A model generated the notes under the pieces. It was not told the DNA's origin. It did no database searches and saw only the letters and a program-made list of their open reading frames with translations. From Escherichia coli (GTDB taxonomy: Bacteria > Pseudomonadota > Gammaproteobacteria > Enterobacterales > Enterobacteriaceae), in NCBI RefSeq assembly GCF_050320075.1, contig NZ_CP190019.1: a stretch of 64,000 nucleotides of DNA; one strand, given 5' to 3'. A program made the position numbers and the translations under genes. Of this stretch, positions 32,705 to 42,611 are shown piece by piece (position 1 is the first letter of the stretch; the number at the start of each line of letters is the position of its first letter).

Positions 32705-32903
32705 AACCGGATGGAGACATTGCAGGATTAGGTTTGTGAGTGGATGCATAGTCATATATTGCACCTCCAGCCACACCCCCAGCAGCTGCTCCAATTCCTC
32801 CTGCAACAAATTGTCCGGATAGTGTTCCTATAGCCATCGCAATATCACGCCCTGAAGCACCACCAGAAACAGAATCTAATTCATTTAGAGTCAGAGTTCT
32901 CAT
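32705..32903 (-). pseudogene. cvaC: Colicin V precursor gene cvaC, 3'-truncated by IS1
   Basis: MRTLTLNELDSVSGGASGRDIAMAIGTLSGQFVAGGIGAAAGGVAGGAIYDYASTHKPNPAMSPSG then reading frame runs into the IS1 end; double-glycine leader intact, about 37 C-terminal residues missing. Confidence 0.85.
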
Positions 32904-33117
32904 ATGATCTCCTTTTTATCTTATCGGATATTGAATAATAATTATCACCAACAAAGTAACATATTGCAGACATTAATATAGAGAAGCAAAATGTATGCAT
33001 GGATAAAAAGTCCTTTCCTCTAAAAACACAATCATATATAGCTAATGCAATATATATTGCGGTGGCATTTATTATAAATGCAAATAACAACTCTAATTTT
33101 GTTCTTTTTCTATCCAT
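32881..33117 (-). CDS. cvi: Colicin V immunity protein Cvi (78 aa)
   Basis: MDRKRTKLELLFAFIINATAIYIALAIYDCVFRGKDFLS… overlaps the cvaC start as in the native operon. Confidence 0.85.
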   Translation of the reverse strand: MDRKRTKLELLFAFIINATAIYIALAIYDCVFRGKDFLSMHTFCFSILMSAICYFVGDNYYSISDKIKRRSYENSDSK

Positions 33118-33163
33118 TACTTTTTATCCCATTACTTTCTATCCCATTACCATACAAACACTA

Positions 33164-33182
33164 ACGATAATGATTATCGTTC
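33164..33182. promoter_or_regulatory. Fur box in cvi-cvaC promoter region
   Basis: Palindrome AACGATAATGATTATCGTT about 50 bp upstream of the cvi start; ColV expression is known to be Fur-regulated. Confidence 0.55.
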
Positions 33183-33580
33183 ACATAGTCAAGAGTGAAG
33201 GGGAGGGGGCCCTCACCCCCTATAAGGGGTCCGCTTGGAAAACGGATTTCCCCACGTCAAGAGAATTGAGTTGAACGAGTGGTTACATCCAAGCCAGCTA
33301 ACTCACTGAACGTAAAGTATGTACGAAATGCTCCTACCGTCCGATAACCATTTGGCTTACTTCCGTACATTCCCTTGCGTAGATGTTCAGAATTGTACGA
33401 TTTCGGACACCAAAACCGCTGTTGTCCCGCCATTCTGGCGATTCCTGAAAGTCATTTGACTAAAAAATAGTCTTAACGTGGTTTATTTTCCGAATTCCAA
33501 GCGGCCCGCCCTACATTTATACAATGTCCGGCAGGGCATAAAAGGGGCGAAAGAAAATACCTGGGCGAAGTCGCTGAACA

Positions 33581-33862
33581 TCATTCTGGCGATTTCAATA
33601 AAGGTACTTGCTCACGCTCTGTCATTTTCTGAAACTCTTCATGCTGCATTTCGATTTTCCTTCTAAGATCATAACTCGCATACCTGTTCTTTTTATGTAT
33701 ATCTATATCTATTTTTGTGACGAGTTCAAACCACAATGTTCGCACTCCCCATGCAGCGTTATGAAACATTTCCGCAACGGCTATAGAGTCTGTATTAACT
33801 GCTTCAGTCATGTAGTCGCTAATACGTTCAGCGGTAATTTTCGTTATTTCATCGTAATTCAT
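33581..33862 (-). CDS. Hypothetical protein (93 aa)
   Basis: ORF only; no recognisable motif. Confidence 0.3.
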
Positions 33863-34046
33863 TTTATCTCCTACAAGATTATTTAATGGAATGCAAAATA
33901 TCTGGCCTGATAATAATGTTCCAGAATTAATATCTGCAGGCTATGTTAAGTTGTCCCCACACACAATCTACCTGTTTTCTCGTGTGTGCCACAGGAGCAA
34001 TACATAAATAGTCTGGCCATTAAGTTCGTAACCAGCTGCTGTAGAT

Positions 34047-34202
34047 CTTAGTTTGTTTTCTTTGACATTAGGCTCGGCCCTTATAGCCTTTGGTCTTCCG
34101 GCCACAGTTGTTGGTTTTGTTGGCGTAGTTATTGCAGGTGCTATTGGTGCATTTATCGATGATAAATTTGTTGATGAGTTGAATCACAAGATCATAAAAT
34201 AA
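34047..34202 (+). pseudogene. cba: Colicin B gene remnant (3' end only, pore-forming domain C-terminus)
   Basis: In-frame translation …SLFSLTLGSALIAFGLPATVVGFVGVVIAGAIGAFIDDKFVDELNHKIIK* resembles the C-terminus of pore-forming colicins (A/B type); no start codon; sits where cba should end, just before convergent cbi. Confidence 0.7.
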
Positions 34203-34219
34203 TTAAAAGGAAGGCAGTG

Positions 34220-34747
34220 TTACTGCCTCCCTTTAAAATATTTAATGACAAGCAATGGCATCAGTAAAATCGCATATGTCATGGTTAAAACAGTAAAGTA
34301 AATGGAGCAGTATAAAATAAAAAGAGTGATGACATTATGAGATAATAATTTAAAAAAACCACCTGCTGTTGTTAGTTCCAGATTATAGAACAGTGTGATA
34401 TAAATCAGAATGGCATAAAAAACGGCCCCCCAGAAACAGGATTGCACAACAAGTTTTCTTGTTACTGGCTTTATGATTTCTCTTGTCTTATATGTGCAAA
34501 GAAAAACGAGAATACCCATAACTGGTGCTGTCTTGTTGTAGTTTGACATAAGTGCTGTCATGACGGGATCATGCAATGATGTAATAGAAGGGAGAAATGC
34601 AACCTTATTATATAAGTAGTACAGCACTTGAGAATATGGATTATTTATCCGAAGTATTAATATAGCCATTAATGGAATAATACCGATTATGGAAAATGCA
34701 TATAATATTTCGTTTGCTTTCTTGTTCTTATCTTTATTGCTGGTCAT
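34220..34747 (-). CDS. cbi: Colicin B immunity protein Cbi (175 aa from internal Met)
   Basis: Multi-pass membrane protein MTSNKDKNKKANEILYAFSIIGIIPLMAILIL…; convergent with the cba remnant. Confidence 0.7.
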   Translation of the reverse strand: MTSNKDKNKKANEILYAFSIIGIIPLMAILILRINNPYSQVLYYLYNKVAFLPSITSLHDPVMTALMSNYNKTAPVMGILVFLCTYKTREIIKPVTRKLVVQSCFWGAVFYAILIYITLFYNLELTTAGGFFKLLSHNVITLFILYCSIYFTVLTMTYAILLMPLLVIKYFKGRQ

Positions 34748-34990
34748 ATATATACCTTTTTGTATTTTTATATATAGATTATATATCAGAGTTCTCAATA
34801 TATTTCCAGTATTTAATGGAGTGTACAGATATATATCTTATATATGGTAGTTCAGGTGCTTCCCTACCATTTTTAACGGCATATCCGGCAAACAATGTTA
34901 TGGGGAGCCTCTCTCATGGGGTTCGTTCGCCGGTGTAAGCGTTAGCCAGCCGCGAACTCTATTATCTTATTAACTTATAAGGAGTTATGT

Positions 34991-35806
34991 ATGGAAACCT
35001 TAACTGTTCATGCACCATCACCATCAACTAACTTACCAAGTTATGGCAATGGTGCATTTTCTCTTTCAGCACCGCATGTTCCTGGTGCTGGACCTCTTTT
35101 AGTCCAGGTTGTTTATAGTTTTTTCCAGAGTCCAAACATGTGTCTTCAGGCTTTAACTCAACTTGAGGATTACATCAAAAAACATGGGGCTAGCAACCCT
35201 CTCACATTGCAGATCATATCGACAAATATTGGTTACTTCTGTAACGCCGACCGAAATCTGGTTCTTCACCCTGGAATAAGCGTTTATGACGCTTACCACT
35301 TCTCAAAACCAGCGCCAAGTCAATATGACTATCGCTCAATGAATATGAAACAAATGAGCGGTAATGTCACTACACCAATTGTGGCGCTTGCTCACTATTT
35401 ATGGGGTAATGGCGCTGAAAGGAGCGTTAATATCGCCAACATTGGTCTTAAAATTTCCCCTATGAAAATTAATCAGATAAAAGACATTATAAAATCTGGT
35501 GTAGTAGGTACATTCCCTGTTTCTACAAAGTTCACACATGCCACTGGTGATTATAATGTTATTACCGGTGCATATCTTGGTAATATCACACTGAAAACAG
35601 AAGGTACTTTAACTATCTCTGCCAATGGCTCCTGGACTTACAATGGCGTTGTTCGTTCATATGATGATAAATACGATTTTAACGCCAGCACTCACCGTGG
35701 CGTCATCGGAGAGTCGCTCACAAGGCTCGGGGCGATGTTTTCTGGTAAAGAGTACCAGATACTGCTTCCTGGTGAAATTCACATTAAAGAAAGTGGTAAG
35801 CGATAA
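34991..35806 (+). CDS. cma: Colicin M (271 aa)
   Basis: METLTVHAPSPSTNLPSYGNGAFSLSAPHVPGAGPLLVQVVYSFFQ… matches colicin M as recalled, full length. Confidence 0.9.
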   Translation: METLTVHAPSPSTNLPSYGNGAFSLSAPHVPGAGPLLVQVVYSFFQSPNMCLQALTQLEDYIKKHGASNPLTLQIISTNIGYFCNADRNLVLHPGISVYDAYHFSKPAPSQYDYRSMNMKQMSGNVTTPIVALAHYLWGNGAERSVNIANIGLKISPMKINQIKDIIKSGVVGTFPVSTKFTHATGDYNVITGAYLGNITLKTEGTLTISANGSWTYNGVVRSYDDKYDFNASTHRGVIGESLTRLGAMFSGKEYQILLPGEIHIKESGKR

Positions 35807-35855
35807 TATAAGGGCCGGGATTCCGGCCTTTTTATGCAGCCTTTATAACAGTGTA

Positions 35856-36209
35856 TTAGTCATTCGCATATTCAACATATCCCTCTTCACAATGGTACAT
35901 GCCATAATACATTCTCTTACCCTCCGGACCTTCAGCTTTAAATGGGACAAGAAGTGTTTTTTCATCTTCAACATCTGTTAAACTTCTCTCAATCTTTTCC
36001 CATGTAATTTTCGGGATTTCTGTACCAAGAAGTTGTACATCGTTGTCCCAGCGTTTCATTCTTTGCAGGTAATCATTTTTTACAAACGTTCTGGCCTGTT
36101 CATCGCTGACCTGATAGCATGCCGGACCTTTATCTTCAGACCAGAAAAAAACAGCAGCAAGAGCAATAATCGTTAAAATAAAAATAAATTTCATGCTAAT
36201 TACTTTCAT
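35856..36209 (-). CDS. cmi: Colicin M immunity protein Cmi (117 aa from Met MKVISMK…)
   Basis: MKVISMKFIFILTIIALAAVFFWSEDKGPACYQ…; convergent with cma. Confidence 0.8.
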   Translation of the reverse strand: MKVISMKFIFILTIIALAAVFFWSEDKGPACYQVSDEQARTFVKNDYLQRMKRWDNDVQLLGTEIPKITWEKIERSLTDVEDEKTLLVPFKAEGPEGKRMYYGMYHCEEGYVEYAND

Positions 36210-36386
36210 AAAATCTCCACAACTTCTGTCGTTCATTCGATATAAAAAAACATTACGAATATATCCGTACAATGTGAGCATACTGTGAAGTGGCTTTAAC
36301 AATTATGAAATAATACAAGAGATCACATATTGCAGTGGTCTCTTCTTTTATAGAATAAATCACAATTCATAATTATGATTTGTGAC

Positions 36387-37178
36387 TTATGCGTGTCTGT
36401 TTTTCAGCATTGTGACAGCATCGGACTCAGGAATCGAAAACTGCACCCGGTGCCGTGCAGCCACATCCAGCGCAAACACCTTCGTGTACACCTCTGTCGA
36501 ACTAATCGACTTGTGCCCCATCAGGCTCTGCAGCACCTTCAGCGGAATACCAGCATACAGCATATGCATCGCGTAGGAATGGCGGAAAGTATGTGGGGTA
36601 ACCGGAACAGAGAACGTCACGCCGTCGGCCGCAGCGGCCTCTACAGCTTCATTCAGCCAGGTGCGAACTGTGCGGTCGGTGATTCCCCAGATGCGCGCCT
36701 TCTCCATTCTTCCGGTTCGTTTGTTTCTGCGCTCCAGTGGGATTTTCAGCGTGGCCACCATCATCTGCAGTTGGCTGACGTATTGTGTATCGGACAGGGG
36801 AACCAGGCGATGCACCTGACTGCCAGCAGGGACACGGCCTGCCGTTCTGGTCGCTTTTTCAGTCCGTTGTTTGAGCGTGGCCAGCTGTACGAACGGATAT
36901 GGCGGCGCCAGAGAAAAATCTCCCCGCGTCAGCGCCAGCGCTTCGTTTATACGTGCGCCCGTGTTCCACAGGGTGGCCAGCAACATTTTGCGGTGCAGAT
37001 CCGGTACATAGTGGAGCAGGGCGCTGATCTCCGGCGCCAACAGATATTTTGGTAATTCGTCCTGCACAAGTGCCATCTGACGTAGTGCCAGCGCAGCCGG
37101 GTAATCAATGGCAACAGGTAATGTTGCCGGAGGCGTTAAAAAAGAACCAGGCAGGGAAAGCAATTGTGGGCCACTCAT
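36387..37178 (-). CDS. Tyrosine site-specific recombinase (ResD/XerD-like), 263 aa
   Basis: C-terminal catalytic region …HTFRHSYAMHMLYAGIPLKVLQSLMGHKSISSTEVYTKV…; paralogous to int at 1263..2003. Confidence 0.8.
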   Translation of the reverse strand: MSGPQLLSLPGSFLTPPATLPVAIDYPAALALRQMALVQDELPKYLLAPEISALLHYVPDLHRKMLLATLWNTGARINEALALTRGDFSLAPPYPFVQLATLKQRTEKATRTAGRVPAGSQVHRLVPLSDTQYVSQLQMMVATLKIPLERRNKRTGRMEKARIWGITDRTVRTWLNEAVEAAAADGVTFSVPVTPHTFRHSYAMHMLYAGIPLKVLQSLMGHKSISSTEVYTKVFALDVAARHRVQFSIPESDAVTMLKNRHA

Positions 37179-37864
37179 GATGTCCCCTTTATGAAATCCT
37201 CAATCTCTTGCTCGGTCTTTTTAGACTTCTTTACCATTTCGTACTCCTTTTGGAGTGTTTTACCTCTGGCTTTCAACAATACCAACCTCGTTGGCGATAG
37301 TGTATCGGAAAGGCCGTGCAGAGGGAGGCCACATAACATTCTCAGTTCTCGTGATAACCGCAGTGCTTTTACTCCCAACATAGCTGCGTTTTTATGCAAA
37401 CTATATTCACCCGCTCCACCATAAGGAGTATCTTCAACAAACACATTATCTACACACACGACAGCTTCGTAGCTGAGAACAGAGAGTTCGCTGAGCCTAT
37501 ACATCAGGCCAGAAGGAAGGGAGCGCCAGTTACCAGATACCGGGGAATAATCGATTTCCGGTAATAAGAACTCAGCTTCTCCTCTGCCATCCTGATCGTG
37601 CTCCACAGTTGCTGTTGCTGCTGGAGCGCAACGCTGCGCAAATCGCTCAAGTAAAAAAACCAGCTCTGTACTAATGTAAAGACGCTCGCTGGCCAGCTTC
37701 GCTGCTGCAGTTCTCTCCTCACGTCTGAGTGTGAAGTGGTGAGTAAGGAACACCGCTCCGACAGCAGATGCGATGGTCGATACAGCTGTAATTATCTGCG
37801 GCCCCAGACTGGCGCTGTCCTTCACCACCTTCACGCCTTCGGTCGCAATAAACCAGTCAGCCAT
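37175..37864 (-). CDS. Hypothetical membrane-anchored protein (229 aa)
   Basis: N-terminal hydrophobic helix (IITAVSTIASAVGAVFLTHHF); stop overlaps recombinase start (ATGA). Confidence 0.5.
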   Translation of the reverse strand: MADWFIATEGVKVVKDSASLGPQIITAVSTIASAVGAVFLTHHFTLRREERTAAAKLASERLYISTELVFLLERFAQRCAPAATATVEHDQDGRGEAEFLLPEIDYSPVSGNWRSLPSGLMYRLSELSVLSYEAVVCVDNVFVEDTPYGGAGEYSLHKNAAMLGVKALRLSRELRMLCGLPLHGLSDTLSPTRLVLLKARGKTLQKEYEMVKKSKKTEQEIEDFIKGTS

Positions 37865-37907
37865 GTTTATTCCTTTATTGTTGAGAAATCCCGCCTTCTG
37901 TATGTAT

Positions 37908-38258
37908 TCAGCGGTCGGCAGCCAGTTCTTCAGCCAGCTTCACAAAGCCTTTGTGCTCAGTCTGCAGGTAATGGCTGTAAATCCGGGCATCACGTTCTGT
38001 GAGCCCGGATGGATTGCCGGTGAAGTAACGTTGCAGCACCGCAATACAGTGATTGTAGGTATCGAGATCATATTCCCAGTTTCCCAGCTCACCGGCCGCA
38101 TCCAGCTCCCGGCGAAACTGCTCGTATTTACGGAGCAGAATGCCAAGACCTAATTCTGTTGCAGCATAAACATTATTTTCTCCTGGCGCGGAAATCGCAT
38201 TACGGATTTTTTCAAAAGCATAACTGAAATCATTTCTCTCATTGAATGCAGTAAACAT
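37908..38258 (-). CDS. Hypothetical protein (116 aa)
   Basis: ORF 44 bp upstream of the 229-aa gene, same strand. Confidence 0.45.
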   Translation of the reverse strand: MFTAFNERNDFSYAFEKIRNAISAPGENNVYAATELGLGILLRKYEQFRRELDAAGELGNWEYDLDTYNHCIAVLQRYFTGNPSGLTERDARIYSHYLQTEHKGFVKLAEELAADR

Positions 38259-38437
38259 GTCCTTTCCTCAGTTGAATAGTTAGCCGTGCAATTTTACCAC
38301 ACCTCAATCATCGCCAGATGAGTGCCACTCTGTTGAGAACAGTGACTTTCACAAAAAATGAATTTCACATACTGAAATAATAAGTAGCCATATAGAAACG
38401 CAGTTAAATTACCGGAGAGCCGTTTCCGTCAGATCCG

Positions 38438-38466
38438 ACTTTCCGGAATATCACAACTTTCCGGAA
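38438..38466. promoter_or_regulatory. Two copies of palindromic octamer TTCCGGAA (within ACTTTCCGGAA direct repeats)
   Basis: ACTTTCCGGAA at 38438-38448 and 38456-38466, about 180 bp upstream of the 116-aa gene. Confidence 0.3.
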
Positions 38467-38710
38467 GTGTACCACGCTGAGAAAATAATCATATCGCTGT
38501 TTTCCGCCCCTGCGCGGCGCATCACAGGTCAGGGAGATGACACAACATATAGTGTCATGAGCAGCTGAATGAGATACCACATGTTGTGCTGACAGGAGGT
38601 GGCGTTGTGTGGGGGGAGAGGAAGATCCGTAACCAGGAGTTTTCGGATCTTCCTGAAGAAAAAGAAAGATTAATGTAAAATTAACAATAATTAACAGCCA
38701 TTGATAACTA

Positions 38711-38745
38711 AAACAGATTAATGCACATTAAGCATTAATCTGTTT
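38711..38745. repeat. Perfect inverted repeat (14-bp arms, 7-bp spacer) with ATTAATGC half-site
   Basis: AAACAGATTAATGC-ACATTAA-GCATTAATCTGTTT, 45 bp downstream of the KAP NTPase stop; followed by a T-run on the + strand. Confidence 0.6.
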
Positions 38746-38789
38746 TTATTTTTGTATTTAAGGCAATTAAAACACCGTATCAATGATGC

Positions 38790-41700
38790 TCAGTCATAAA
38801 ACTCAACATCACGGACATAGCGTACGGGAGTAATAACAATTTTGTGTTCATCACGCCCTGACCCCATTTTTGGCGGCTGAATAAATCCAAGATTGCTGAT
38901 TAATTCGGCCACTTCCCACAAATCCACGGAGTGAGGGATTTTCCTGAACCTGTCATGTGGTAACAGTCCATGATAGCTCTCATCAGCAAAACTGTTCAGC
39001 ACCACGCAAAGCGCGTCTTTGCCAGCATCCCCGGCAACCAGACAACGTTTAAGCAGTGTCAGGCGCAGATCATCGTCACCCATCCAGGGACTCAGTTCTG
39101 CCAGAATATCTAATGACAGCAGGTAGCTCTTATCAAGAATTCCCGGTTTGTTATCACGCAACCAGCGTAAAGCGGCAACTTTTATATTCATACCGATTAG
39201 CTTGTGACGAAAAAGTTCGCTTGCCAGTTCTTCATCAAAGTCACCCTCGATATAAAAAATATCTTCTGGCTCCTGGGTAATAATCTCAGGACGCTGGGCA
39301 ATAAGGTTACCAAGCAGAGTATTCATCCTGTTAATATCATCAACATTTCCACAGAGAGCATTAAACAACACCGTAAAGACATTAACTGTCGGTGCCAGTT
39401 TTTTCTCTGAACATAACAGTTCAGCATTTCGCAATGGAATGTTTTCAGGCACATCGATAATAACAACGTTTAAATTACTCAGTACTTTCAGTAAAGCTTC
39501 TTCTGAAATGACTGGCGAGCAAATTAATTCAGAAATAAAATTATTAAATATTCCTGTATCATTTATGACTATATCAGATGGTTCAAATTCAAAGTGTTTC
39601 TCATTTACCCACTGAACAAGTTCACCGGAAGTATTAATTGATGTATCATGCAATAAATGAATAATATTATCAAAGGATGGAAAAATCCTGTCATGCTGCA
39701 ACAGCATGCTATAGATATTTCTCCCTGAAGCATTATTGTCCGCACACTCTGAACGATTAATAATATCATCCAGATTATTTATACAAAAATCCATTTTGGC
39801 TATAATCTGTTCAACAACAGTCATTGAGACTTCAGAAGAATTCAGCAATTCAGGAATACGATCAATCTCTTCCGATTCAATAAATACCGATAAAATAAAA
39901 TCTTCTATGTTAGTCCACAGAACTTCTGTTAATTCAGAAATAGCCAGGGACTCGAGACAATGAAACGGATAAAGAGAGAATGACATTCTTTCTTCATTCT
40001 TGTCTTGCGTCAGGCAAAGATAAACATTTTTAAGATTACTGACGGAATATTTGAATAATCCTGCACCCGCAATTTTCCTGATAACAGAACACTTCTCGTC
40101 TCCCACATCACCTGGAATATATGAAACTGAAAGTGTATTATCTTTCAACACTTCAAAAAACGCATCACCATATCCTTTTGGCACAGCAGTAATAAGAATT
40201 GGGGAGGAATCTATAAGTTCACCGATACGTTTATTAATCTCAACCGATTGCCAGATATTTGATTTTTCAGTCAGGCATAACAGGTGTGCCGCTATTTCCT
40301 GAACAAAAAACTTTTGCTCGGGTGTGCGTTCTTCTGACGCACATAAATGTGCCAGCAATCTGTTCAGTATATGTTCATCTGACATAAAAATCTCCAGGTA
40401 ACGCAGGCGAACATACGTTGTGAAATCGTTCTGCATCAACATCAGCAAACTAACCACACGCTGGCTACCCGTCTGACTCAGTAATGCCATTATATTGTTT
40501 TTCAGGGTATCAGGGTCATTATCAATCAGCCATCTGATAACAGCAGGATGTTGAGCATTGTCACGCTGCAGAACCCCCAGCTTTTTGAGTCGTTCAACAA
40601 TATTATTAACGTTATCAAGATGGAATGAGAATGTTTTTTCCGGACCTTTACCAGACATAACATCCTTAAGAAATAAATTATCTGTCTCACTCAGCCCTCC
40701 GGGAATGAAGATTGAGCGATAGGACATGTAATCTGTTGATAAATAACCACTTGATAACAGAAAAAATATAAAGTCAATCTGTTCATGTTCCGACTGAATC
40801 GTCAGGACACCTGTATCCTCTTTCTTCTTTATCCAGGCAACAAAGCCTTCATTTGTCATCTTTTCTGCTATATCAGCTACAGTTCCGGAAAGAATTTCGG
40901 TCCTCAATGACTCCAGACTGGAAATATTATTTTTCACTCTGGTTATATTATCAACAGATTTAGTTTCAATTAAATGGCATCGTTTTTCATACTGCTGCTT
41001 CAGTTTTTCTGTATCCCGCTGATTTATCATGAGAAAAATTTGTCTGTTATAGGGGGTAACGACCTGAATATTTTCCTTATCTAAAAGCATGAGAAATTCA
41101 TCTTCATCTTGTATCAAATCATCAAGACTTATTTGCCTTCCTTCTGTATAAAAAACAAGCGCGCCGCTATAATTTTTACTAAGGTAAGGCATGAGCAGTT
41201 CTTCGCGCAGATTTTCCCGGTTTGCGAGTTTTTCATTTGTTATCGCTACAAGTGACTGTGCCATATCCTCAAGTTCGTTATTTGCAGAATGTAATAATTC
41301 ATTCTGAATTTCATGGTCTAAGTAGCTTTGAATAAAATGATAAAGAACACCTTTTTTACTATCTATACCATGATAATCTTCCGCACAGAGATTTTTATAT
41401 GCTATCATGGCAAGTAGTTTGGCCAGATTTTCCCGACTATTGACTAAATTCTGATAGAGTCGAAACTCATTTGTAATATTATGCATTACACGCATATTGG
41501 GAATAAATGTCGCAATACGAGAAATACATTCGCTTAAGTTATTATTTATCTCTTCTTCTTTGAATTTTTTAACAAAATGCTCATAAGCATTCTGGTTATC
41601 CATCACTGGAATAACAGGCATAACAAAATCAAAGAATTTCGTTCTTGACTCTGCTGAGTTGAAAATACCATCTCTGACAGCATAAATAAATTTTACAGGT

Positions 41701-42611
41701 TTTCTGTCAGAAAGGCAGTTATTAATAATTTGATTGATTTCCCGCAATTTCACGAAAATCCGGCCATTGTTAAAACGGTCAAGATCTTCGAATATCACTA
41801 CATCATATTTAGTCGAATCAAAAAAATAGACAATTTCATCAATATAGACATTAAGTAAAGAAGGTGATGATGCCCGGGTTGTAACAGCGCCTTTCAGAAG
41901 GTCCACTTTATCAAGACTTACTTTCCTGTCAAATATACCGATACGATGTAACTGGTTCAAAAGCAGGCATAACGATCCCATCACAGATGCCACTGCACCG
42001 GACACACGCACCCCAAACGGGCATTCAAGAAGGTAACGGGCGAATGCTCCCGGCAAAGATAGCTTTGTTGTAACGTAATCCGGCGCAAGGAAAAATAAAG
42101 CAGCTCCACTCAGTAAAATGGTTCCTGTCAGAAAAGACGCAGACCGCAATATTTGTCCCGCAGTCACATCTGATATACGGTCAATGCGGGAACAGGGAAG
42201 CTCATGCTTTTTATTTTTGTAGAGTATTTGTTGCAGAATACTGTATTCAATAGATTTTTCAACACTACCAGTATTTTTCGTCCCTTCGTCACTACTGCTG
42301 TCCCCATTACTTTCATCCACATGTCTCTGCATATCAAAATCAGCAAGAGAAACGGTTAACACCCGCAGTGTCCCATTGTGAGCTTTGCACCATGTTTTTA
42401 ATACTGAGCTTTTCCCTGCCCCATACGGCCCGGTAACAGCAATATTCCGGATATCCGGATGTTCATAAGCATAATTAAGCGCGCTGATATAACAGCCTGC
42501 TTTATCTGAGTCGAGTTCTGTCGGAGTCAGTGCTTCATAGCTCACTGCATTTGCCTCAGCATGATCACTATCGGCAACGATCGGTGTCAGCCACGGTGTG
42601 GACATTATCAT
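38790..42611 (-). CDS. KAP-family P-loop NTPase with intra-domain transmembrane helices (1273 aa); function unknown
   Basis: Walker A NIAVTGPYGAGKSS; hydrophobic helices (FLTGTILLSGAALFFLAP, VRVSGAVASVMGSLCLLLNQL) inserted before Walker B-like YDVVIFEDLDRF; about 950-aa C-terminal region without assignable motif. Confidence 0.65.
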   Translation of the reverse strand: MIMSTPWLTPIVADSDHAEANAVSYEALTPTELDSDKAGCYISALNYAYEHPDIRNIAVTGPYGAGKSSVLKTWCKAHNGTLRVLTVSLADFDMQRHVDESNGDSSSDEGTKNTGSVEKSIEYSILQQILYKNKKHELPCSRIDRISDVTAGQILRSASFLTGTILLSGAALFFLAPDYVTTKLSLPGAFARYLLECPFGVRVSGAVASVMGSLCLLLNQLHRIGIFDRKVSLDKVDLLKGAVTTRASSPSLLNVYIDEIVYFFDSTKYDVVIFEDLDRFNNGRIFVKLREINQIINNCLSDRKPVKFIYAVRDGIFNSAESRTKFFDFVMPVIPVMDNQNAYEHFVKKFKEEEINNNLSECISRIATFIPNMRVMHNITNEFRLYQNLVNSRENLAKLLAMIAYKNLCAEDYHGIDSKKGVLYHFIQSYLDHEIQNELLHSANNELEDMAQSLVAITNEKLANRENLREELLMPYLSKNYSGALVFYTEGRQISLDDLIQDEDEFLMLLDKENIQVVTPYNRQIFLMINQRDTEKLKQQYEKRCHLIETKSVDNITRVKNNISSLESLRTEILSGTVADIAEKMTNEGFVAWIKKKEDTGVLTIQSEHEQIDFIFFLLSSGYLSTDYMSYRSIFIPGGLSETDNLFLKDVMSGKGPEKTFSFHLDNVNNIVERLKKLGVLQRDNAQHPAVIRWLIDNDPDTLKNNIMALLSQTGSQRVVSLLMLMQNDFTTYVRLRYLEIFMSDEHILNRLLAHLCASEERTPEQKFFVQEIAAHLLCLTEKSNIWQSVEINKRIGELIDSSPILITAVPKGYGDAFFEVLKDNTLSVSYIPGDVGDEKCSVIRKIAGAGLFKYSVSNLKNVYLCLTQDKNEERMSFSLYPFHCLESLAISELTEVLWTNIEDFILSVFIESEEIDRIPELLNSSEVSMTVVEQIIAKMDFCINNLDDIINRSECADNNASGRNIYSMLLQHDRIFPSFDNIIHLLHDTSINTSGELVQWVNEKHFEFEPSDIVINDTGIFNNFISELICSPVISEEALLKVLSNLNVVIIDVPENIPLRNAELLCSEKKLAPTVNVFTVLFNALCGNVDDINRMNTLLGNLIAQRPEIITQEPEDIFYIEGDFDEELASELFRHKLIGMNIKVAALRWLRDNKPGILDKSYLLSLDILAELSPWMGDDDLRLTLLKRCLVAGDAGKDALCVVLNSFADESYHGLLPHDRFRKIPHSVDLWEVAELISNLGFIQPPKMGSGRDEHKIVITPVRYVRDVEFYD

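What the first reader, a model, noticed from the sequence alone, without database searches (positions are those of the whole stretch)
36387..38258. Two unknown genes translationally coupled to a ResD-like tyrosine recombinase
Operon on the minus strand: 116-aa ORF, then 229-aa ORF with an N-terminal membrane anchor, then a 263-aa tyrosine recombinase whose start overlaps the preceding stop. In F-like plasmids the resolvase ResD sits directly after the ccdAB addiction genes; here two unrelated, unrecognised genes occupy that position. This could be a novel stability/toxin-antitoxin or exclusion pair co-expressed with the resolvase.
Basis: inference. Interest (0 to 1): 0.55.

Follow-up and report, generated by a model that had tools for sequence, protein, structure and literature searches.

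The report
Swappable unknown genes before plasmid resolvase
Two uncharacterised genes sit exactly where the F plasmid keeps its ccdAB addiction genes, in front of the ResD dimer-resolving recombinase, and this position proves to be a slot that related plasmids fill with a dozen different small gene sets, so the pair is probably a conflict or stability module whose function nobody has tested.

Summary
On the minus strand lie orfA (116 aa, 37908-38258), orfB (229 aa, 37175-37864, one N-terminal membrane helix) and a 263-aa tyrosine recombinase (36387-37178). The recombinase ATG overlaps the orfB stop (ATGA).

The window is an E. coli IncF ColBM/ColV plasmid. The recombinase is ResD, 91% identical to the ResD that follows ccdAB. 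An rfsF-type site (14-8-14 inverted repeat, 38619-38654) lies upstream. Both flanks are homologous to F-type plasmids and only the middle is replaced, so the pair occupies the ccdAB slot.

It is not an obligate pair. Across 46 ResD loci the slot holds at least 12 gene families in combinatorial arrangements. orfA also pairs with an unrelated 202-aa gene; orfB pairs with five other small genes.

orfB belongs to PADLOC candidate PDC-S67 (DUF4760-like). It lay directly upstream of resD in 6 of 6 independently sampled loci. orfA is a four-helix bundle homologous to the C-terminal domain of Cthe_2314-type HEPN fusion proteins.

Beyond rfsF, defence and toxin-antitoxin genes (here Tmn) are exchanged by crossover inside the site.

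Function is untested. My best guess is a membrane-acting addiction or abortive-infection module. It is a new variant of a known kind, of moderate interest.

The parts
38619..38654 (.). rfsF-type recombination core. An imperfect inverted repeat AGGAAGATCCGAAA / 8 nt / TTACGGATCTTCCT (14-8-14) that contains the 26-bp motif GATCCG-N14-CGGATC.
   Evidence: The inverted repeat was found (I3, 93% complementary). The motif occurs once, 0.74-2.15 kb upstream of resD, in 42 of 52 ResD loci (>=72% identity) from other species. The window and pOHT76-1_3 are identical from the inner arm onward but differ in the central ~10 nt and in the whole outer flank, and L102 versus L103 show the same pattern. The architecture matches the published description of rfsF (PMC5587640).
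38377..38675 (-). Conserved non-coding block (rfsF plus the region homologous to the F oriV-1/rfsF region), shared by IncF, IncI, IncR plasmids and an ICE whatever genes follow it.
   Evidence: Alignment A3. blastn segments are 87-96% identical to L010, L011 and L012. pEC958/F layout from PMC4398462.
38428..38466 (-). Two direct TTCCGGAAAGT repeats (38438-38448 and 38456-38466) followed by a third CGGATCT half-site (GTCGGATCTGAC, 38428-38439). Candidate accessory ResD-binding or operator elements.
   Evidence: TCGGATC is invariant in all seven aligned loci. Binding by ResD is an inference.
38291..38299 (-). TGGTAAAAT, an extended -10-like element in the orfA-specific leader. Candidate operon promoter.
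   Evidence: Read from the sequence and conserved in the orfA-type leaders of L013 and L002. The simple sigma-70 scan did not call it, so this is an inference.
37908..38258 (-). orfA, 116 aa. A soluble up-down four-helix bundle, the stand-alone form of a domain found at the C-terminus of Cthe_2314-type HEPN fusion proteins.
   Evidence: (pLDDT 94.6).
37881..37895 (-). GGCGGGATTTCTCAA, a conserved leader that travels with orfB-family genes whatever gene lies upstream.
   Evidence: Homology to other orfB loci starts at window 37895.
37175..37864 (-). orfB, 229 aa. It has a highly conserved 20-residue N-terminal peptide, one transmembrane helix (about residues 22-42) and a cytoplasmic helical bundle whose C-terminal part is variable. 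PADLOC PDC-S67 / DUF4760-like family.
36387..37178 (-). resD, 263-aa tyrosine recombinase (multimer resolvase). Its start overlaps the orfB stop.
36317..36344 (.). GC-containing hairpin just after resD. Candidate terminator of the orfA-orfB-resD transcript.
   Evidence: where the tool calls it on the + strand. Use by the minus-strand operon is an inference.
38790..42611 (-). Tmn, a 1273-aa transmembrane NTPase and known single-gene anti-phage system. It is the exchangeable cargo on the outer side of rfsF and is followed by a 15-bp-stem hairpin at 38710-38746.
   Evidence: PADLOC Tmn, 2057 bits over the full length. RefSeq product 'anti-phage transmembrane ATPase'. Hairpin. Tmn biology from PMC13001434.

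Best explanation
The three genes form the rfsF-resD multimer-resolution operon of an IncF ColBM/ColV plasmid. orfA and orfB are the current occupants of a hypervariable cargo slot between the rfsF block and resD. This is the slot that holds ccdA-ccdB in F.

Shown:
- ResD and rfsF are conserved on both sides of the slot.
- The slot contents are exchanged combinatorially among plasmids and ICEs of Enterobacterales.
- orfB-family genes are always the gene, or next-to-last gene, translationally coupled to resD.
- The outer side of rfsF is a second exchange point that carries defence and toxin-antitoxin genes, here Tmn.

Inferred mechanism:
- orfB is a single-pass inner-membrane protein. Its conserved N-terminal peptide plus membrane helix would be the acting part (membrane perturbation or growth arrest). 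Its fast-diverging cytoplasmic helical bundle would be the regulatory or recognition part.
- orfA is a portable soluble regulator or neutraliser domain. The same domain is fused to HEPN RNase effectors elsewhere and is paired with other effector-like genes.
- Together they would act as an addiction or abortive-infection-type conflict module, functionally analogous to ccdAB but not homologous to it.
- ResD dosage would be tied to expression of the module through translational coupling.
For: Slot identity. The flanks are homologous to F-type ccdAB-resD and only the middle is replaced.

Hypervariability. In 46 loci with an rfsF core, the slot holds the orfB family (13 loci), ccdAB (7), orfA (6) and at least nine other families in mix-and-match orders.

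orfB and resD linkage. Six of six orfB homologues chosen without reference to resD lie directly upstream of a Phage_integrase gene. Four of them overlap it by 4 nt.

Conflict-system signals:
- orfB hits PADLOC candidate PDC-S67 at 1.2e-17, and its IncR and ICE homologues hit it at 3.6e-45 and 2.2e-38.
- The orfA profile finds 22 proteins of 290 aa or more (297-353 aa) in which the orfA-like domain follows an N-terminal domain. The five full-length ones read carry an IRxLRNxSIGHPT motif, which fits Rx4-6H. One cluster member is named 'Cthe-2314-like HEPN domain-containing protein' by UniRef.
- Another orfA-like fusion precedes a MotA/ExbB-like membrane protein on an ICE.
- Other slot occupants include a 259-aa protein with an RNALVH motif and a DUF3223/HamC2-like protein.

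orfB anatomy. Residues 1-20 are 90% conserved across 50 homologues, against 34% for residues 141-200 and 9% for 201-229. Synonymous third-base differences in the first codons show that the protein itself is under selection.

Precedent. ccdAB, the characterised occupant of the slot, is a post-segregational killing module (established knowledge; PMC4398462).
Against: - No experiment bears on either protein.
- orfA and orfB assort independently, so a specific neutralising interaction is doubtful.
- PDC-S67 is only a candidate. It may have been flagged merely because the family always sits beside the defence-rich outer flank of rfsF.
- The orfA link to HEPN involves the non-HEPN part of the fusion proteins, and an HMM of the fusion N-terminus finds none of the slot proteins.
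- The transmembrane hydropathy is only just above threshold, 1.72 against 1.6.
Confidence: 0.4

Rival explanations
1. orfB, and possibly orfA, is an accessory factor of the ResD/rfsF recombination system itself. It might tether the resolvase or the plasmid to the membrane, or time resolution relative to replication or division. It would then not be a toxin or a defence gene.
For: orfB-family genes were found only immediately upstream of resD, usually with a 4-nt start/stop overlap, in every context examined. In an Atlantibacter chromosome the island is little more than rfsF, orfB and resD. The variable 3' part of orfB and the first ~20 codons of resD travel together as one DNA segment. orfA gave a weak hit to a phage-integrase SAM-like N-terminal domain, E=0.055.
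Confidence: 0.15
2. The two genes are functionally independent single-gene cargo that merely share a transcript. orfB would be a stand-alone anti-phage protein (PDC-S67) and orfA an unrelated regulator or anti-defence protein.
For: The two genes assort independently. PADLOC classes PDC-S67 as a single-gene candidate. Slot gene orders look like an array of interchangeable units, for example c13|c2|c6|orfB, c2|orfB and c8|orfB|c9. Each orfB carries its own conserved leader and ribosome-binding site.
Against: orfB is almost never the first gene after the rfsF block; a small gene of 95-130 aa nearly always precedes it. No anti-phage data exist. No relatives were found in IMG/VR or INPHARED phage genomes, which would be expected for a common anti-defence gene.
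Confidence: 0.2
3. orfA and orfB form a classical type II toxin-antitoxin pair, with orfA the labile DNA-binding antitoxin and orfB the toxin, that simply replaced ccdAB.
For: The position and gene order match ccdA-ccdB: a small gene first, a larger one second, co-directional and upstream of resD. An imperfect inverted repeat lies in the orfA-type leader (38322-38346), upstream of the candidate -10 element at 38291-38299, and could be an operator.
Against: There is no sequence similarity to CcdA or CcdB. orfA is a four-helix bundle without a recognisable RHH, HTH or AbrB DNA-binding fold. A nearly identical orfA (96.5%) accompanies an orfB only 35% identical. orfA also accompanies an unrelated 202-aa protein, and orfB accompanies five other small proteins. 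This argues against a co-evolving cognate pair.
Confidence: 0.15

Closest known systems
ccdA-ccdB-resD operon with rfsF of the F plasmid (RepFIA region)
   Same: The recombinase is the same (91% amino-acid identity). The same rfsF-type site and conserved upstream block are present (91.5% nucleotide identity). The layout is also the same: site, two small genes, then resD (PMC4398462).
   Different: The two small genes are unrelated to CcdA and CcdB in sequence and predicted fold. One is a membrane protein. They carry their own leader and promoter region. Their function is untested.
PADLOC phage-defence candidate PDC-S67 (DUF4760-like membrane proteins)
   Same: orfB matches the PDC-S67 model, and its IncR and ICE homologues match it strongly. 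Close AlphaFold-database homologues are labelled DUF4760.
   Different: PDC-S67 is an untested candidate. The window protein is a divergent member (62 bits) with a different C-terminal half and gets no Pfam DUF4760 hit itself. Every member examined here is tied to resD, a link I did not find in the papers searched.
Cthe_2314-type HEPN proteins (Anantharaman et al. 2013, PMC3710099)
   Same: orfA is homologous (E down to 6e-21) to the C-terminal ~110 residues of 297-353-aa proteins. Their N-terminal domain carries the Rx4-6H motif, and one cluster member is named Cthe_2314-like HEPN.
   Different: orfA has no HEPN domain. It corresponds only to the appended helical domain, and in this operon it is followed by a membrane protein rather than an RNase.
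rfsF/ResD-mediated mosaicism of IncI1, IncR and IncF plasmids (Col/Delta switch in IncI1; pST1023)
   Same: The outer flank of the site is exchanged between plasmids with the junction inside the rfsF core, as in the published descriptions (PMC8004404, PMC9412624).
   Different: Those papers describe exchange at rfsF only. The papers I read do not describe a second variable region between rfsF and resD (ccdAB, orfA/orfB or others). That region shows no site-like boundaries and is more consistent with homologous recombination between conserved flanks.
Toxin-antitoxin genes embedded next to the resolvase and res site of Tn3-family transposons (PMC7157771)
   Same: The theme is the same: an addiction-type module placed between a resolution site and its recombinase gene, sharing its regulation.
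   Different: That system has a serine or tyrosine resolvase of a transposon and canonical toxin-antitoxin families. I saw the paper only as a search hit and did not read it.

Membership tests
ResD/rfsF tyrosine-recombinase multimer resolution system (F plasmid type) | Tyrosine recombinase catalytic domain with the R...HxxR...H...Y residues | tested here: met
   Pfam Phage_integrase 1.1e-17. R76, H196/R199, H222 and Y231 are present.
ResD/rfsF tyrosine-recombinase multimer resolution system (F plasmid type) | Orthology to the ResD encoded downstream of ccdAB | tested here: met
   91% identity over 244 aa to the integrase following ccdA-ccdB on IncFIA plasmid pRHB24-C21_2.
ResD/rfsF tyrosine-recombinase multimer resolution system (F plasmid type) | Cognate site upstream: imperfect inverted repeats of 10-14 bp around a 6-8 bp spacer | tested here: met
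   A 14-8-14 inverted repeat lies at 38619-38654. It is conserved once per locus in 42 of 52 loci, and comparative crossover junctions fall inside it. The site description comes from PMC5587640.
ResD/rfsF tyrosine-recombinase multimer resolution system (F plasmid type) | Resolves plasmid multimers in vivo | not testable with these tools
   Needs a resolution assay.
Type II toxin-antitoxin module (ccdAB-like) | Homology to CcdA/CcdB or another known toxin-antitoxin family | tested here: not met
   No BLASTP similarity to CcdA or CcdB. No Pfam or NCBIfam toxin-antitoxin family. Only generic bundle folds.
Type II toxin-antitoxin module (ccdAB-like) | Cognate pair: the two genes co-occur and co-vary | tested here: not met
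   orfA at 96.5% identity sits with orfB at 35% identity on IncR. orfA also pairs with an unrelated 202-aa gene, and orfB pairs with five other upstream families.
Type II toxin-antitoxin module (ccdAB-like) | Toxicity of one product neutralised by the other | not testable with these tools
   Needs expression experiments.
PADLOC PDC-S67 (candidate defence gene) | Match to the PDC-S67 profile | tested here: met
   E=1.2e-17, residues 34-210. Homologues at 3.6e-45 and 2.2e-38.
PADLOC PDC-S67 (candidate defence gene) | Protects against phage | not testable with these tools
   No paper mentions PDC-S67. DUF4760 appears once, incidentally.
Pfam DUF4760 | Significant match to PF15956 | tested here: not met
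   No Pfam hit even at E<=10. Only AlphaFold-database homologues of 40-54% identity carry the label.
HEPN superfamily (Cthe_2314-like) | HEPN domain with the Rx4-6H motif | tested here: not met
   orfA aligns only to the C-terminal non-HEPN domain of the fusion proteins. Its R89-x6-H96 is not conserved, since H96 varies.
Integron (IntI + attI + attC cassettes) | IntI-type integrase and attC-bounded cassettes | tested here: not met
   Integron-integrase models score 61.7 and 46.9 bits against cut-offs of 265 and 435. Cargo boundaries show no repeated attC-like element, only gene-specific leaders.

The most novel reading that the evidence does not exclude
The rfsF-resD locus is a two-sided gene-exchange platform of enterobacterial plasmids and ICEs. 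Site-specific crossover at rfsF swaps defence islands on the outer side. The inner slot holds interchangeable growth-arrest effectors (CcdB, HEPN-like proteins, the orfB membrane protein) together with portable regulator domains such as orfA. Expression of these inner genes is coupled to the resolvase. The module could then act as a checkpoint or addiction device linked to the plasmid's multimer state, rather than as a simple toxin-antitoxin pair.
Probability: 0.12. Interest if true: 0.8.

Novelty: new variant of a known kind. Interest (0 to 1): 0.5.

Why it matters
The orfA-orfB-resD module is carried by about 6% of complete E. coli genomes (330 of 5,426, almost always on plasmids). These include ColV/ColBM virulence plasmids, yet both genes are annotated 'hypothetical'.

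Showing that the module is one allele of a hypervariable slot whose only characterised allele is ccdAB gives a concrete, testable hypothesis for a dozen unknown plasmid gene families at once. It also offers a natural experiment on why addiction or defence genes are wired to a multimer resolvase.

It further cautions that PADLOC's PDC-S67 may have been flagged because the family always sits next to the rfsF defence hotspot. And it supplies a precise map (rfsF core, outer hotspot, inner slot) for interpreting mosaic IncF, IncI and IncR plasmids.

Tried and rejected
- Pfam, NCBIfam and PHROGs gave no informative family for either protein. The PHROG hits are families of unknown function.
- I tested whether orfA is related to the orfB bundle. 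hhalign probability was 0.3%, so I rejected this.
- I tested whether orfA is a split-off core-binding (SAM-like) domain of the recombinase. The only support is a Pfam hit at E=0.055, and F-type ResD works without it, so I rejected this as the main reading.
- I tested whether orfA plus the 202-aa partner gene is a split form of the HEPN fusion. An HMM of the fusion N-terminus finds no slot protein, and Pfam finds nothing in the 202-aa or 259-aa partners.
- Pfam, PADLOC and NCBIfam on the fusion proteins were uninformative. The HEPN label rests on the motif and on one UniRef name.
- Phage origin: no relatives in IMG/VR or INPHARED.
- Integron-like cassettes: no attC-like boundaries.
- Literature: nothing on PDC-S67 and one incidental mention of DUF4760. 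The Tmn papers do not discuss the downstream genes. Lane et al. 1986, which holds the rfsF sequence, is not in the library, so identity to the published rfsF rests on architecture, position and homology to the F region.
- The simple sigma-70 scan did not find the operon promoter.
Full report
**1. What is in the sequence**

The minus strand of window 36387-38258 carries three consecutive ORFs exactly as described:
- orfA, 37908-38258, 116 aa.
- orfB, 37175-37864, 229 aa.
- A 263-aa tyrosine recombinase, 36387-37178.

The sequence shows that the recombinase ATG overlaps the orfB stop (ATGA), with an AAGGGG Shine-Dalgarno sequence just upstream. orfA and orfB are separated by 43 nt, and orfB has its own ribosome-binding site. 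Only orfB is therefore translationally coupled to the recombinase.

The window is 100% identical over this region to many E. coli IncF ColBM/ColV-type plasmids such as pL65-2. Immediately downstream lie cmi, cma and cbi. Immediately upstream lies a 1273-aa gene that matches the PADLOC Tmn model end to end (2057 bits) and is annotated 'anti-phage transmembrane ATPase'.

**2. The recombinase is ResD, with its site**

The protein has a Phage_integrase catalytic domain and the catalytic residues R76, H196/R199, H222 and Y231. It is 91% identical to the integrase encoded directly after ccdA-ccdB on an IncFIA plasmid.

Upstream of orfA, at 38619-38654, lies a 14-8-14 imperfect inverted repeat, AGGAAGATCCGAAA...TTACGGATCTTCCT. 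I scanned one genome per species with ResD. The embedded motif GATCCG-N14-CGGATC occurred exactly once, 0.74-2.15 kb upstream of resD, in 42 of 52 loci whose ResD is at least 72% identical.

Two natural pairs show the crossover point. The window (Tmn outside) and pOHT76-1_3 (DUF3800 gene outside) are identical from the inner arm GTTACGGATCT onward, but differ in the central ~10 nt and in the entire outer flank. Serratia loci L102 (Abi_2 outside) and L103 (DUF4238 outside) behave the same way.

This is the architecture and behaviour described for rfsF. Published accounts give inverted repeats of 10-14 bp around a 6-8 bp spacer (PMC5587640), place rfsF ahead of oriV-1, ccdAB and resD in F (PMC4398462), and describe rfsF as a switch point in IncI1 and IncR plasmids (PMC8004404 and PMC9412624). 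I could not read the original rfsF sequence paper.

**3. The two unknown genes occupy the ccdAB slot, and the slot is hypervariable**

Against an F-type plasmid, window 38675-38407 is 91.5% identical and resD is 82.5% identical, while the interval between has no similarity.

The same conserved flanks enclose quite different genes elsewhere:

| Element | Genes between rfsF and resD |
|---|---|
| IncI-gamma/K plasmid | one 137-aa gene |
| pN84 | 104-aa gene + 259-aa gene |
| IncR plasmid | orfA (96.5% identical) + 247-aa orfB homologue (35% identical) |
| Pectobacterium ICE | 119-aa gene + 240-aa orfB homologue + 115-aa gene |
| Common E. coli plasmid type | orfA (70% identical) + unrelated 202-aa gene |

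I made a mechanical ORF census of the interval between the rfsF core and resD in 46 loci and clustered the products by BLASTP. The family counts were:
- orfB family: 13 loci
- ccdAB: 7
- orfA: 6
- a 259-294-aa family with an RNALVH motif: 6
- a 103-133-aa family: 9
- a 131-140-aa family: 6
- a DUF3223/HamC2-like family: 5 (PADLOC E=2.3e-4)
- a 111-123-aa family placed last before resD: 5
- a signal-peptide family of 180-210 aa: 4
- several rarer families

The orders are combinatorial. Short ORFs inside the conserved rfsF block (for example the 58-aa ORF at 38404-38580) recur only because the DNA is conserved, and I treat them as spurious.

Segment mapping of the window gives five pieces:
- rfsF block, 38675-38377.
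- orfA module, 38567-37866.
- A conserved orfB 5' part with its own leader, 37895-37634.
- A window-type-specific piece comprising the orfB 3' part and the first ~20 codons of resD.
- resD from about 37118.

No repeated site-like boundaries were seen. Homologous recombination between conserved flanks is the simplest explanation for shuffling of the inner slot (inference).

**4. orfB**

The family (266 hits at first pass, 499 with a profile) is confined to Enterobacterales in sequence searches and is always annotated 'hypothetical'.

The AlphaFold model (pLDDT 84) has several parts:
- A low-confidence N-terminal peptide.
- A helix from residue 21 to 83 whose first part is hydrophobic (Kyte-Doolittle 1.72 at residues 24-42).
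- A short beta-hairpin.
- Three further helices.

Conservation is steeply graded. Mean identity across 50 homologues is 90% for residues 1-20, 65% for 21-45, 58% for 46-95, 34% for 141-200 and 9% for 201-229. Synonymous changes in the first codons show that the selection acts on the protein.

Six orfB homologues picked without reference to resD are all directly upstream of a Phage_integrase gene. They come from Pectobacterium, Atlantibacter (chromosomal), Citrobacter, an Enterobacteriaceae megaplasmid, Serratia and Pantoea.

**5. orfA**

orfA is a confidently predicted four-helix bundle (pLDDT 94.6) with only generic structural neighbours and no relation to orfB.

An exhaustive profile search found 106 relatives. 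Twenty-two are proteins of 290 aa or more (297-353 aa) in which the orfA-like domain forms the C-terminal ~110 residues. In the five full-length ones I read, the N-terminal ~200 residues carry a conserved IRxLRNxSIGHPT motif, which fits the HEPN Rx4-6H signature. One cluster member is named 'Cthe-2314-like HEPN domain-containing protein' by UniRef. Anantharaman et al. list that family with a conserved motif and no known associations (PMC3710099).

A Raoultella ICE encodes another orfA-like fusion directly upstream of a MotA/ExbB-like membrane protein. The orfA domain therefore recurs next to, or fused with, effector-like proteins of different kinds: an RNase, orfB, a 202-aa protein and a MotA-like protein.

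**6. Surroundings**

The gene immediately outside rfsF is often a defence or toxin-antitoxin gene. Examples are:
- Tmn (this window).
- CBASS cyclase plus 4TM effector.
- A PD-T4-5/AbiD-like protein.
- Abi_2, DUF4238 and a KAP NTPase.
- vapBC/PIN.

Many other neighbours are unknown; 6 of the 9 sampled proteins had no significant PADLOC family hit.

Tmn is a self-contained system, and its published analyses do not mention the downstream genes. A strong hairpin follows Tmn at 38710-38746 and another follows resD at 36317-36344. This is consistent with orfA-orfB-resD being its own transcription unit, driven from the orfA-specific leader. That leader has an extended -10-like TGGTAAAAT at 38291-38299 (inference; the simple promoter scan did not call it).

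**7. Interpretation**

What is shown is structural. This is the rfsF-resD operon, and orfA and orfB are one of many alternative fillings of its inner slot. They are not an obligate pair. orfB is tightly tied to resD.

What they do is inferred. I favour a conflict module, addiction-type or abortive-infection-type and analogous to ccdAB (confidence about 0.4 for the functional part). In it, orfB would be a membrane-acting effector with a diversifying cytoplasmic recognition domain, and orfA a portable regulator or neutraliser.

The rivals are:
- A ResD accessory role for orfB (0.15).
- Two independent single-gene cargos (0.2).
- A classical cognate toxin-antitoxin pair (0.15).

The PDC-S67 label is weak evidence, because the family's constant position beside the rfsF defence hotspot could by itself explain why it was flagged.

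**8. Prevalence and novelty**

The orfA-orfB segment (at least 80% coverage) occurs in 330 of 5,426 complete E. coli genomes. Of the 827 matching places, 799 are on plasmids, and the genes are always annotated as hypothetical proteins. In PLSDB, 321 or more plasmids carry the 2.5-kb region.

ResD/rfsF, Tmn and rfsF-mediated mosaicism are already known. I did not find three things described in the papers I could search:
- The recognition that the ccdAB position is a hypervariable slot.
- The link between orfB/PDC-S67 and resD.
- The homology of orfA to HEPN fusion proteins.

I rate the finding a new variant of a known kind, with moderate interest. It is a well-defined and widespread pair of unknowns with a clear experimental path, but no demonstrated function.

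Noticed in passing
window 38790-42611 (minus strand), hairpin 38710-38746: A full-length Tmn anti-phage transmembrane NTPase sits directly outside the rfsF core. In otherwise identical plasmids (pOHT76-1_3) a DUF3800 gene replaces it, with the junction inside the core.
   Followed up: yes
window 32881-36302: A colicin cluster: cvi-like 78-aa ORF (32881-33117), cbi (34220-34798), cma colicin M (34991-35806) and cmi (within 35856-36302). No intact colicin B activity gene was seen between cbi and cvi in the ORF list or in the pL65-2 annotation.
   Followed up: partly
window 38404-38580 (minus strand): A 58-aa ORF inside the conserved rfsF/oriV-1-like block recurs in 16 loci. It is probably not a gene; the DNA is conserved as a cis-acting region.
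   Followed up: partly
P0229, P0233, P0237, P0238, P0247, P0252, P0298; loci L098, L099: A family of 297-353-aa proteins, found in Vibrio cholerae/paracholerae and others, combines an N-terminal Cthe_2314-like HEPN-motif domain with a C-terminal orfA-like bundle. It has no Pfam, NCBIfam or PADLOC hit. One member sits next to an ORC/CDC6-like ATPase and another next to a transposase.
   Followed up: partly
L100 6001-7695 (Raoultella ICE): A 238-aa protein with an orfA-like C-terminal domain is followed by a MotA/ExbB-like membrane protein in ICE cargo next to TraG_N. This may be another two-gene membrane-linked module.
   Followed up: no
L016, L022, L023, L038, L039, L044, L045, L052, L065 (outer side of rfsF): A recurrent divergently oriented protein of about 360-390 aa, beginning MLSQLTLRFxKKLIExLK, is the commonest outer neighbour of rfsF in the species survey. 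It has no PADLOC hit.
   Followed up: partly
L012 4742-5521 and homologues (L019, L022, L023, L030, L038): An alternative slot occupant of 259-294 aa carries an IKIRNALVHRNG motif (HEPN-like Rx4H) but gets no Pfam hit. It is preceded by five different small genes.
   Followed up: partly
L093 6213-8549 (Atlantibacter hermannii chromosome): A minimal rfsF-orfB-resD island is inserted among formate-dehydrogenase and formate-transport genes of a chromosome, with no plasmid genes nearby.
   Followed up: partly
window 37881-37895 and equivalents in L007, L028, L060, L093, L094: A conserved GGCGGGATTTCTCAA element about 15 nt upstream of the orfB ribosome-binding site travels with orfB whatever gene precedes it. 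Its role (RNA element or recombination junction) is unknown.
   Followed up: partly
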